Position numbers: made by a program. Of a DNA stretch of 64,000 nucleotides, positions 33,001-36,000 are shown piece after piece. Origin of the DNA: Escherichia coli (GTDB lineage: Bacteria; Pseudomonadota; Gammaproteobacteria; Enterobacterales; Enterobacteriaceae); assembly GCF_003991155.1 (NCBI RefSeq), contig NZ_CP031293.1, one strand, 5' to 3'. Numbering within the stretch: the stretch's first letter is position 1; each line of letters begins with the position of its first letter.

Positions 33001-36000
33001 TGGCCAAAAATTGAGGCATTTATTACTTGGTTAAGAGAACAGGTAAGTCAATATGAATGTTATACCTTATAATACATTAAATCATCTGGTTCCTAAATAA
33101 CCTTATTATGCACTGTAAGTGTATGTTGGCTTTATAAATTGCAATTTTTATATGGGAATTGTTTTGTCAATAGTTACGAAAAGGATAAATAAAATAACCA
33201 CATCTTCTTGGCGTCGAATATTGGAGAGCGATAATTTATAGTAAACTAGATTACCAGAGAAAAGATAAGTGGCAATATATTTGCTGGTGGCATTTTTATT
33301 AAATATTATATGTGTTGGTTTGTGACTTTAAAAAAATTAATTTTTAATAAAAAGGTGATTTATTTCTCATTTTGATTAATATTGAGGATCCATTATGATT
33401 ATCAGTTGTATGTCATAAAAATGAGGGGCTAAAAGCCTCAATGAATTGAGGCCTTTAGAACAGGGGTTATATCTTCTTTATATCTAACACATCACTCTCC
33501 CATACTCGTTTAAATCTTGCTGCATTACTGGCTGTATATAATACCGTATGATGTATATTTCTGTGCCCTAAATAATCTTGTATTAGTCTGGTGTCTAACC
33601 CTTGATTAGCTAAAGCATACCCACAACCATGCCTAAGCATGTGAGGATGAATATTAATATTCATATTGTGACTATATTTCTTACACATCTTATACACATA
33701 TTGTCTCGAGATTTTATTTCCTTGACAAGAAAGAAATAAAGAGTCTTCAAAAGGTTTTTTTACTATGTTATCACGTAGTGCTAGCCATTTTTTTAATAAC
33801 AGAACAGTTTCTTTTTGCAGGGGATGTACTGTGGATAATCCATTTTTTAAACGCTTGATATATATTGCTGACTCTGAAAAGTCAATGTCGCTAATCTTTA
33901 GTGCAATAAGCTCGCTTACCCTAAGACCATGTACATATGCCATTTGTAACATGGCTTTATCTCTAATTTCATTTTTTGAACCGTTGATGGCTTCAAAAAA
34001 TAACAACCATTCACTATGAGTAATAAATTTGCGCATAATATTATCGGTTATACTAATTAAGTTAAAAAATAAACTATAAATACCAGAGCCTGGTATTATT
34101 GCTTGTTTTTTATAAGCAAATAATGAGCTGGGGTTTAAATTATGCCACTAAATGGATATTCATCAATACCCCGCCAGAGAGATAGTTGCCCAGCGGGCAT
34201 AGATCATTGTTAGTCAACCAATGAGCATAAATAAGCACAAGGAGGTGTGTATTGCGAATAGTAATTCAATGACATGCTGGTGGTTTTTTTGTGGTGAAAA
34301 TATTTGTACCTTTTTGTTTACGGATGAAAAATAAACAGTCATATTATTTTGGTCAATTGTTGTGTTAGTTTTAACACTCGGTGATGTTTTTTGTTATAGT
34401 GCATTAAATTTTAAATAAAAAAATTCATACATTCATGGATGTAATATATACAAGATACAATGTTAATTTTAGATAAAATATTAATTGCATTGGATACTTT
34501 TTAAATATGCCGATGTTGAGCTTAATTTTATGAGGGAATGCTATTTCGGGTTGTAGGACTTTTTTATAATCATCTTATAGGGCTCTTTATATTTACAGGA
34601 GGGTTTTGAACGATAGTTACATAACGAAGGTTGTTTATATGCGTTTACAAGCGATTAATTAGATTAGGTGAATTTTAATAAATTAATCTATAATCATACA
34701 GCAACTATATGAATTATATTATTGACTAAATGTAATTCTTTCATCATAGTTGACATGGTTATTTTATATAAATAGAGGTGATTTATGCAAAACAGAAAAT
34801 TTTTAACGCATCATGAAATTAATTTACTACTTCAATCTGTAAGACAAAAGAGTTGCTCTTCACGCGATGTTTGCATGATTTTATTGGCTTATTTTCATGG
34901 TCTGCGTGTTAGTGAGCTCTTATCTCTGCAGTTGTCAGATTTAGAACTAACTACAGAAAAAATATATATTCAACGGATAAAAAATGGATTCAGTACAGTC
35001 CATCCACTTCAAAAGGAAGAGGTGATTGCAATAACAAACTGGCTGAATGAAAGGAATTCATTAAATGTTAAACATTTCAATGATAACCCGTGGTTATTTG
35101 TTTCCCGAACAGGAAAACCATTATCGAGACAACGATTTTATAACATAGTTTCTGCTGCGGGTAAAAATGCAGGTTTAAATATTAAAGTTCATCCACATAT
35201 GTTACGCCATGCATGTGGTTATTCACTAGCAGATAATGGTGTGGATACCCGTCTTATTCAGGACTATCTCGGGCATCGTAATATCAGGCATACGGTAATT
35301 TATACTGCTTCTAATTCAATGAGATTTGAAAAAATGTGGGGGAGAGGTGACGCAAAAAAGCAACATTTTGACCCAAAATGTAAACCCAATCTTTGTTTAG
35401 AAATTCTCGTATAGAAAAACATTTTTTTCTATAAAAAACATTAAATTTACTGATTTAGATCAATGTGTGACGTCAATCTACACATAAAGAGGTAGGTTTG
35501 TCTTCTTTTTAATCTTTGGCGTATAAAGCCAAAATGTAAATAATAATCAAAATTATATTCTGAATTAAAATAAATACGCAGGTTTTTTACCTGCGTTTTG
35601 TGCTATTTATAGTTAATTAAATTGATGTTGTCAAAATGGGTCATTTTGTAAACCTGTGCCTCAAGGTTTGTCTCCCCCCGGTGTGCAAAGCAAAAGGAAA
35701 TTGGGAAAGGGGATAACAGGAAATTGATTGCATGGTTTTGATTACGACGACAAAAAATATTTTTATAATTCAAGCAATTAAGAGTATGCGTTGGCGGGGT
35801 TTTTCGTACGTGAAAGTCATCGCTGTGGACGACTATTCTTCTCTGATTCGTGATTTTGGCACATCTTGCTTTCGGGATGAGCAATCGTTGTTGTTACCTG
35901 TATTCCCTGATAATGATTCTACTACCTGTATACGCTCACTGTATTTCATTCACCAATGGCTAAAAAGCCAGCCTGTCAATATTCCGTGCCTGGCATGGGG

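What the first reader, a model, noticed from the sequence alone, without database searches (positions are those of the whole stretch)
35411..35432. A/T-only hairpin straddling the stop codon of recombinase 2, inside the candidate switch
ATAGAAAAA-CATT-TTTTTCTAT forms a perfect 9-bp stem overlapping the TAG stop at 35412-35414. Because it lies inside the putative invertible segment, it could be a recombinase-accessory binding site or affect 3' end formation in an orientation-dependent way.
Basis: seen in the sequence. Interest (0 to 1): 0.25.

Follow-up and report, generated by a model that had tools for sequence, protein, structure and literature searches.

The report
AT-rich palindrome in ipuS promoter
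The hairpin is real, but it is most likely just the A/T-rich core of the promoter inside ipuS, an already described invertible DNA switch of uropathogenic E. coli, and not a terminator or a recombination accessory site.

Summary
TATAGAAAAA-CATT-TTTTTCTATA (35410-35433) is a perfect 10-bp palindrome, one pair longer than reported, across the TAG stop of the second recombinase gene. It is not strictly A/T-only, because it has one G-C pair.

The locus is the published E. coli ipuB-ipuA-ipuS-ipuR-upaE phase switch (Battaglioli 2018). I placed the 7-bp inverted repeats at 35369-35375 and 35637-35643. Inverting 35376-35636 in silico gives the published 198-aa truncated IpuA, and it matches a public ON-orientation assembly at 461 of 461 bases.

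The paper maps the ipuS transcription start inside the ipuA coding sequence. Only two sigma-70 hexamer pairs on the minus strand fit that description, and both lie on the hairpin arms.

The long stem is specific to E. coli. Orthologous Salmonella switches keep only the inner A5/T6 tracts, and the tib-type homologues keep nothing. One E. coli lineage carries an uncompensated arm mutation.

IHF and Lrp motif matches do not exceed chance. A G+C-rich bidirectional terminator at 35576-35596 is the better candidate for 3' end formation.

The conserved internal site is a different dyad: an FNR-type box (TTGAT-N4-ATCAA) at 35450-35463, present in all 8 homologous switches.

Verdict: the hairpin is an ordinary feature of a known system.

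The parts
33467..34036 (-). ipuB, a tyrosine DNA invertase (189 aa)
   Evidence: ORF; Pfam Phage_integrase, E 7e-46; annotated ipuB in CFT073.
34785..35414 (+). ipuA, a tyrosine DNA invertase. This is the full-length 209-aa form, which marks the switch as OFF.
   Evidence: ORF; Pfam E 1e-49; annotated ipuA in 236 E. coli genomes.
35364..35380 (.). Left recombination site CATTTTG-ACC-CAAAATG, which contains the 7-bp inverted repeat TGACCCA (35369-35375).
   Evidence: This block is 91-98% conserved across 8 homologous switches.
35376..35636 (.). The 261-bp segment that inverts (interior of ipuS).
   Evidence: In-silico inversion gives a 198-aa IpuA ending DPF*, as in PMC6083910 Fig. 1C. The predicted ON sequence equals public assembly L098 at 461 of 461 bases.
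35410..35433 (.). The palindrome of the finding: TATAGAAAAA-CATT-TTTTTCTATA, a 10-bp perfect stem.
35403..35435 (-). Candidate sigma-70 core promoter of ipuS. Either TTTATA (35435-35430), 16-nt spacer, TATACG (35413-35408); or TAGAAA (35431-35426), 17-nt spacer, GAGAAT (35408-35403).
   Evidence: These are the only minus-strand hexamer pairs with 4/6 plus 4/6 matches and a predicted start inside the ipuA coding sequence. That is the description of the mapped promoter in PMC6083910.
35450..35463 (.). FNR-type dyad CTGAT-TTAG-ATCAA, one mismatch from TTGAT-N4-ATCAA.
   Evidence: Present at the same offset in 8 of 8 homologous switches and perfect in 6. Only one perfect box occurs in 480 kb of other fimB/E-like loci, and that one is in a homologous switch.
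35576..35596 (.). G+C-rich hairpin ACGCAGGT-TTTTT-ACCTGCGT with T-rich tails on both strands; likely a bidirectional intrinsic terminator inside the switch.
   Evidence: Terminator scan on both strands; -14.4 and -13.0 kcal/mol.
35637..35643 (.). Right 7-bp inverted repeat TGGGTCA, inside the dyad CAAAATG-GGT-CATTTTG (35632-35648).
35732..36352 (+). ipuR, a LuxR/GerE-type regulator (206 aa).
   Evidence: Pfam GerE, E 5e-12. The 317-bp ipuA-ipuR spacer is exactly as published.
36377..44296 (+). upaE, an autotransporter adhesin (2639 aa).
   Evidence: ORF; annotated as phase-variable autotransporter adhesin UpaE in CFT073.

Best explanation
The palindrome is double-stranded promoter DNA. It is the A/T-rich core region of the promoter carried by the known ipuS invertible element.

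In this window the switch is OFF. The promoter therefore points leftwards on the minus strand into the 3' end of ipuA, and for that reason it happens to overlie the ipuA stop codon. After inversion of 35376-35636, the same 24 bp sits about 130 bp upstream of ipuR and drives ipuR-upaE.

The dyad symmetry is probably a by-product of three things: an A5 tract facing a T7 tract (conserved in orthologues), two self-complementary TATA motifs that supply the -35-like and -10-like hexamers, and one G-C pair.

Shown: the identity and boundaries of the switch; the overlap of the only consensus-compatible hexamers with the arms; and the lack of conservation of the long stem. Inferred: that these hexamers are the published promoter, because the figure giving the exact start site could not be read; and that the symmetry itself has no function.
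For: The locus matches ipuS. It has the gene order dsdC-ipuB-ipuA-ipuR-upaE, a 317-bp spacer, 7-bp inverted repeats, the 11-aa truncation with K to F, and a single PacI site. CFT073 carries the identical hairpin.

The inversion boundaries are verified against natural ON assemblies, with 0 of 461 mismatches, and the 198-aa ON-form IpuA exists in public data.

[quoted passage not shown] An exhaustive scan finds only two such minus-strand pairs, and both lie on the hairpin arms.

Conservation. In three orthologous ipuR-upaE switches the inner A/T tracts and loop are 80-100% identical to E. coli. The outer 5 bp of each arm sit at the interior background (43% against 43-48%). Stems there are 6-7 bp or interrupted, and the dyad axis is shifted by about 1.5 bp relative to E. 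coli, so the pairs are not homologous.

An uncompensated T35425C substitution occurs in strain MINF_7C.
Against: The exact published start site and hexamers are in a figure I could not read, so the assignment rests on elimination.

A 10-bp perfect stem appears in only about 1% of shuffles of the switch. 222 of 236 E. coli genomes are identical over the 48-nt query (window 35398-35445) that contains the hairpin, although the whole region is 97-100% identical, so this says little.

Conservation of AAAAA(G)ACATTTTTT in orthologues fits an alternative -10 (AAAAAT, 23 nt from the FNR-type box) at least as well. That would move the start site to about 35412-35415. The hairpin would still be core promoter, but the hexamers would differ.
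Confidence: 0.6

Rival explanations
1. The palindrome is an operator for a dimeric DNA-binding protein (for example IpuR autoregulation, or another regulator) sitting on the core promoter.
For: It has near-perfect 24-bp dyad symmetry on a promoter, and IpuR has a GerE/LuxR helix-turn-helix domain, a family whose members (from general knowledge) often bind inverted repeats. The stem is unlikely in local shuffles. Short dyads on the same A/T core occur in the Salmonella orthologues.
Against: The outer arms are not conserved, and the dyad axis shifts in orthologues that encode an orthologous regulator. There is an uncompensated natural variant. I recognised no known operator consensus in the sequence (from memory, not a formal scan), and the inverted-repeat scan of 34000-36400 showed only a low-complexity A/T resemblance at 35752-35767.
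Confidence: 0.12
2. It acts as an RNA hairpin at the stop codon of ipuA mRNA in the OFF orientation, influencing termination of translation, 3' end formation or transcript stability.
For: The stem forms in the minimum-energy and centroid folds of the 266-nt ipuA 3' region. It is transcribed as part of ipuA only in the OFF state. Orientation-dependent control of the recombinase transcript has a precedent in fimE/fimS (my own knowledge).
Against: It is weak (-6.7 kcal/mol), has one G-C pair and no following U tract, and was not listed by the terminator scan. A much stronger terminator lies 145 nt downstream (35576-35596). The stem is not conserved in orthologues, whose ipuA genes stop at different places (offsets 34 to 97 bp from the left repeat). 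There is no Rfam match.
Confidence: 0.1
3. It is an architectural or accessory site (IHF, Lrp, H-NS, or intrinsic A-tract curvature) that helps bend the 261-bp segment for inversion, as proposed by the first reader.
For: fimS needs IHF and Lrp sites inside the switch (PMC6083910 introduction). The sequence has A5, T7 and A6 tracts, and the island is 31% G+C, which is H-NS-like territory. Lrp half-matches with 3 mismatches overlap the hairpin.
Against: IHF matches: 2 observed against 1.7 expected, and neither lies in the hairpin. Lrp matches with up to 3 mismatches: 5 observed against 2.3 expected, with the best at 35548-35562. The hairpin is not conserved in 7 homologous switches that share the same recombination sites and size.
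Confidence: 0.1
4. It is a pure coincidence of low-complexity A/T sequence with no role at all, not even as promoter DNA.
For: The stem is made of homopolymer runs and TATA. Stems of at least 9 bp arise in 17% of shuffles of the island. The outer arms are specific to E. coli.
Against: The published start site lies within about 40 bp to its left, so the -10 to -35 region must overlap it. The inner A/T core is conserved in orthologues well above the interior background.
Confidence: 0.08

Closest known systems
ipuS invertible promoter element of uropathogenic E. coli CFT073 (Battaglioli et al. 2018, PMC6083910; Russell et al. 2018, bioRxiv 10.1101/494401)
   Same: [quoted passage not shown] It also gives the same 11-aa truncation with K to F on inversion, has a single PacI site, and CFT073 has the identical hairpin sequence.
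   Different: Nothing differs about the system; the window comes from a different lineage (98.5% identical to CFT073 across the switch). The text of the two papers that I searched or read does not mention the palindrome, the internal terminator or the FNR-type box.
fimS switch with the fimA promoter (E. coli type 1 fimbriae)
   Same: Both are invertible segments of about 300 bp carrying a sigma-70 promoter, flipped by FimB/FimE-family recombinases. The recombinase gene reads into the switch, so its transcript depends on orientation (PMC6083910 and my own knowledge).
   Different: fimS has 9-bp repeats, and fimE ends outside the switch, whereas ipuA ends inside ipuS. IHF and Lrp sites are documented in fimS, but none could be shown in ipuS. 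I did not retrieve fimS for a direct sequence comparison.
Rho-independent (intrinsic) terminators
   Same: Both are a stem-loop located just after a stop codon.
   Different: The stem is nearly all A-T, at -6.7 kcal/mol, and is followed by an A run rather than a T run, so it fails the scan. The real terminator-like hairpin is at 35576-35596.
FNR/CRP-family binding sites (applies to the neighbouring dyad, not the hairpin)
   Same: 35450-35463 matches TTGAT-N4-ATCAA with one mismatch, and 6 of 8 homologous switches match perfectly.
   Different: The hairpin itself (TAGAAAAA-N4-TTTTTCTA) does not resemble the FNR or CRP consensus. FNR binding to the neighbouring dyad is untested.

Membership tests
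ipuS invertible element (Battaglioli 2018) | Lies between ipuA and ipuR-upaE, next to dsdCXA, with a 317-bp ipuA-ipuR spacer | tested here: met
   Gene order and Pfam domains; CFT073 annotation; the spacer 35415-35731 is 317 bp.
ipuS invertible element (Battaglioli 2018) | [quoted passage not shown] | tested here: met
   TGACCCA and TGGGTCA with 261 bp between them; the simulated ON product is 198 aa ending DPF*.
ipuS invertible element (Battaglioli 2018) | The segment is actually found in both orientations | tested here: met
   Of 236 complete genomes, 235 are OFF and one (TUM1586) is interrupted by an IS200 insertion; none is ON. Three draft assemblies are ON, and one equals the predicted ON sequence at 461 of 461 bases.
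Sigma-70 promoter (core region) | -35 and -10 hexamers with 16-18 bp spacing upstream of a mapped start site | tested here: inconclusive
   Two candidate pairs with 4/6 plus 4/6 matches lie on the arms, and the published start site is inside the ipuA coding sequence. The exact coordinate was not available to me. Both pairs fall below the 9-of-12 threshold of the generic scan.
Intrinsic terminator | G+C-rich stem followed by a T/U run | tested here: not met
   One G-C pair in 10; the following bases are AAAAAAC; not listed.
IHF binding site | Match to WATCARNNNNTTR | tested here: not met
   There is no match with up to 1 mismatch inside 35410-35433. The two 1-mismatch matches elsewhere in ipuS equal the chance expectation.
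Lrp binding site | Match to YAGHAWATTWTDCTR | tested here: inconclusive
   The best overlaps have 3 mismatches; 5 such sites occur in ipuS against 2.3 expected. The consensus is degenerate and A/T-rich.
Structured RNA family (Rfam) | Covariance-model match | tested here: not met
   No match covers the hairpin at E up to 1.
Conserved cis element of IpuA-family switches | Present at the homologous position in related switches | tested here: not met
   The 10-bp stem is found only in E. coli. Salmonella orthologues have 6-7 bp stems on a shifted axis, L090 has an interrupted stem, and the four tib-type switches have none.

The most novel reading that the evidence does not exclude
The hairpin region and the FNR-type box 35 bp away (centre to centre) form one regulatory module. 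On this reading the ipuS-family invertible promoters are FNR-dependent, so ipuR-upaE (and the tib-like operons behind homologous switches) would need both the ON orientation and low oxygen. The E. coli-specific 10-bp dyad over the core promoter would be an added operator or a cruciform-prone element that tunes this. No paper in the searched library links FNR to ipuS.
Probability: 0.2. Interest if true: 0.45.

Novelty: already known. Interest (0 to 1): 0.12.

Why it matters
The hairpin itself matters little. It is a small sequence feature inside ipuS, a switch that was described in 2018, and it most likely just marks that switch's promoter.

The check still gives three useful results:

- It fixes the exact inversion boundaries in this window and verifies them against natural ON-state assemblies.
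- It shows that the internal G+C-rich hairpin, not the A/T one, is the likely insulator of ipuR from ipuA read-through in both orientations.
- It shows that the only internal sequence conserved across eight homologous switches in Escherichia, Salmonella and Citrobacter is an FNR-type box. If that box is real, expression of the UpaE adhesin would be tied to oxygen as well as to phase. This is testable with an fnr mutant in a locked-ON strain.

Tried and rejected
- **Terminator reading:** rejected. The stem fails the scan and has no T run, and a strong terminator lies downstream.
- **IHF and Lrp sites:** consensus scans with shuffles show no enrichment, and the best hits lie outside the hairpin.
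- **Rfam:** no match.
- **Covariation support for the stem:** an apparent compensatory pattern next to the A run (G-C in E. coli, C-G in L093, T-A in L088) was rejected. In the gap-free alignment the dyad axes differ by about 1.5 bp, so the pairs are not homologous.
- **The 'compensatory' double deletion in strain SCU-124** (A5 to A4 and T7 to T6): discounted. That assembly shortens many homopolymers and has a frameshifted ipuA, so sequencing error is likely.
- **Within-E. coli conservation:** uninformative, because the whole switch is 97-100% identical.
- **More divergent ipuS copies in complete E. coli genomes:** the blastn 'distant' search found none beyond the same 236 genomes.
- **Class II FNR promoter geometry:** AAAAAT lies 23 nt from the box in the four ipuR-upaE-type switches, but CATAAC/T lies 25 nt away in the tib type. 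I could not decide between this and the two 4/6 hexamer pairs.
- **Literature searches** for FNR with ipuS, ipuR or upaE, for CFT073 locus tags, and for an invertible element at tib: nothing relevant.

Full report
**Observation**

The sequence at 35411-35432 is as described: ATAGAAAAA, CATT, TTTTTCTAT. The TAG at 35412-35414 ends a 209-aa ORF (34785-35414).

Two details need correcting. The flanking T35410 and A35433 also pair, so the perfect stem is 10 bp (35410-35433). The stem contains one G-C pair (G35414-C35429), so it is not strictly A/T-only.

Predicted stability is modest: -6.7 kcal/mol as RNA on the + strand, -7.3 on the - strand, and -6.1 as DNA on either strand. The stem persists in the fold of the 266-nt ipuA 3' region.

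In dinucleotide-preserving shuffles, a perfect stem of at least 10 bp occurs in 0.9% of shuffles of the 275-bp switch and in 5% of shuffles of the 2.7-kb A/T-rich island. For stems of at least 9 bp the figures are 2.7% and 17%. The feature is real and moderately unusual, but it is built from an A5 run facing a T7 run plus two self-complementary TATA motifs.

**What the locus is**

The neighbourhood reads emrY, dsdA, dsdX, dsdC. These are followed by a 189-aa tyrosine recombinase on the minus strand, the 209-aa recombinase, a 206-aa GerE/LuxR regulator and a 2639-aa autotransporter.

This is the E. coli ipuB-ipuA-ipuR-upaE island, annotated as such in 236 of 5426 complete E. coli genomes, including CFT073. 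Battaglioli et al. 2018 (PMC6083910) described its invertible element, ipuS. Their description includes:

- about 260 bp, with 7-bp inverted repeats;
- the distal repeat inside ipuA;
- a 317-bp ipuA-ipuR spacer;
- full-length IpuA in the OFF state, and an 11-aa truncation with K to F in the ON state.

Here the spacer 35415-35731 is exactly 317 bp. The repeats are TGACCCA (35369-35375) and TGGGTCA (35637-35643). Inverting 35376-35636 in silico gives a 198-aa IpuA ending HFDPF*. The single PacI site used in the published orientation assay is at 35613-35620.

The predicted ON-form protein exists verbatim in public data. One of the draft assemblies that encode it equals my predicted ON sequence at 461 of 461 bases; two others differ at 2 positions.

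The boundaries are therefore verified. The window is in the OFF orientation, and the hairpin is inside the inverting segment, 35 bp from the left repeat. CFT073 carries the identical 24 bp.

**What the hairpin most likely is**

[quoted passage not shown] In the OFF orientation this promoter fires on the minus strand.

I enumerated every minus-strand hexamer pair between 35400 and 35480 with at least 4/6 plus 4/6 matches and 15-19 bp spacing. There are three, and only two predict a start inside ipuA:

- TTTATA (35435-35430), 16 nt, TATACG (35413-35408);
- TAGAAA (35431-35426), 17 nt, GAGAAT (35408-35403).

Both place the -35 on the right arm and the -10 on, or just beyond, the left arm. Whatever the exact start within 35376-35414, the -10 to -35 interval must overlap 35410-35433. 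The palindrome is therefore core promoter DNA of ipuS.

In the ON state it lies about 130 bp upstream of the ipuR start codon, and it is upstream of the start site, so it is not part of the ipuR mRNA. In the OFF state the promoter points into ipuA. Antisense interference with ipuA is a possible consequence, but that is inference only.

**Conservation**

IpuA homologues led to seven further switches with the same GACCCA/TGGGTC cores and 251-263 bp between them:

- three are orthologous ipuB-ipuA-switch-GerE-autotransporter loci: two in Salmonella enterica subsp. diarizonae (L088, L093) and one unassigned contig (L090);
- four lie upstream of operons encoding a CaiF/GrlA-like protein, a GerE regulator and a TibC-like glycosyltransferase: E. 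whittamii L001, C. freundii L092, E. coli L094 and Citrobacter L095.

In the alignment, both recombination sites are 80-98% identical to E. coli, while the interior is 34-43% identical.

In the three orthologues the inner A/T tracts and the loop of the hairpin are 80-100% conserved (AAAAAGACATTTTTT). The outer 5 bp of each arm sit at background (43%). The resulting stems are 6 bp, 7 bp, or interrupted, on a dyad axis shifted by about 1.5 bp. The four tib-type switches have no hairpin there, with 17-47% identity.

Within E. coli, 222 of 236 genomes are identical over the 48-nt query (window 35398-35445) that contains the hairpin, but the whole switch is 97-100% identical. One lineage (MINF_7C) has T35425C, an uncompensated change in the right arm.

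The long stem is therefore a lineage-specific feature and is not maintained as a structure.

Accessory site: IHF consensus matches in ipuS number 2 against 1.7 expected, and neither lies in the hairpin. Lrp matches are weak, and the best one lies at 35548-35562.

3' end formation: the stem is followed by AAAAAAC, and the terminator scan does not call it. By contrast, ACGCAGGT-TTTTT-ACCTGCGT at 35576-35596 is called on both strands, with T-rich tails, at -14.4 and -13.0 kcal/mol.

Because that G+C-rich hairpin is inside the switch and works in both directions, it would end ipuA transcripts in either orientation. In the OFF state this is about 165 nt after the stop codon, and in the ON state about 40 nt after the new stop. 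This agrees with the paper's finding that only locked-ON cells give an ipuR 5' RACE product. The link to termination is my inference.

No Rfam family matches the region.

**Side finding**

The one interior block conserved in all eight switches is a different dyad, at 35450-35463. It reads CTGATTTAGATCAA here and matches TTGAT-N4-ATCAA perfectly in six of the eight, always 88-92 bp from the left repeat. That is the FNR consensus, which I cite from established knowledge.

A match with up to one mismatch arises in only 3-4% of shuffles of any single switch. In 480 kb around 80 other fimB/E-like recombinase genes there is just one perfect box, and it is the one in the homologous E. whittamii switch.

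The position of the box depends on which -10 is real:

- about -55 with TATACG;
- about -60 with GAGAAT, which is class I-like;
- about -42 with a conserved AAAAAT (35426-35421), which is class II-like and would start transcription at the ipuA stop codon.

I could not decide between these. The text of the ipuS papers that I searched or read does not mention FNR, and no paper in the searched library links FNR to ipuS, ipuR or upaE.

**Verdict**

That switch is the already published ipuS, and the hairpin is best read as its A/T-rich core promoter, with the symmetry incidental (confidence about 0.6).

The alternatives are an operator for a dimeric regulator, an RNA hairpin acting on ipuA mRNA, an architectural site, or pure chance. 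Each remains possible at about 0.1.

Interest in the hairpin is low. The FNR-type box is the more promising lead.

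Noticed in passing
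window 35450-35463; L088 3167-3180, L093 3168-3181, L090 3007-3020, L001 2936-2949, L092 3169-3182, L094 3172-3185, L095 3176-3189: An FNR-type dyad (TTGAT-N4-ATCAA) is conserved at a fixed offset (88-92 bp from the left repeat) in all 8 IpuA-family invertible elements and is perfect in 6. It is the only conserved block in otherwise diverged interiors. No paper in the searched library links FNR to ipuS.
   Followed up: partly
L001 2852-3127, L092 3085-3359, L094 3088-3363, L095 3091-3366: Four ipuS-like invertible elements have the same core repeats and size. They lie between an IpuA-like recombinase and an operon encoding a CaiF/GrlA-like protein, a GerE regulator and a TibC-like glycosyltransferase. 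They occur in E. whittamii, Citrobacter and E. coli, which suggests phase-variable tib-like adhesin loci. I found no description of this in the searched library.
   Followed up: partly
L088 and L093 (Salmonella enterica subsp. diarizonae), L090: These are orthologous ipuB-ipuA-switch-ipuR-upaE loci outside E. coli, with IpuA 79-81% identical and a 2631-2636-aa autotransporter called in L088 and L093 (cut off by the contig end in L090). The recombinase C-terminal tail inside the switch differs in length and sequence in each.
   Followed up: partly
window 35576-35596: A G+C-rich hairpin with T-rich tails on both strands lies inside the invertible segment. It is a likely bidirectional terminator that insulates ipuR from ipuA read-through in both orientations. 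It is not conserved in the Salmonella orthologues.
   Followed up: partly
window about 35576 (hits H1 and H70, strain TUM1586, NZ_CP135712.1): One complete genome has an IS200C insertion inside ipuS, at the 5' edge of the terminator hairpin.
   Followed up: no
window 35364-35380 and 35632-35648: Each recombination site is itself a 17-bp dyad: CATTTTG-ACC-CAAAATG on the left and CAAAATG-GGT-CATTTTG on the right. The 7-bp 'inverted repeat' is therefore the asymmetric centre flanked by symmetric half-sites.
   Followed up: no
E. coli genome collection and L098-L100: Of the 236 complete E. coli genomes with the locus, 235 are assembled with ipuS OFF and one (TUM1586) is interrupted by an IS200 insertion; none is ON. 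ON-orientation copies exist only in a few draft or metagenome assemblies.
   Followed up: yes
L097 (strain MINF_7C), equivalent to window 35425: A natural T to C substitution in the right arm of the hairpin has no compensating change in the left arm.
   Followed up: yes
L081 (strain SCU-124): In this assembly ipuA is annotated as frameshifted, and many homopolymer runs across the switch are one base shorter, including both hairpin arms. This is probably sequencing error rather than biology.
   Followed up: no
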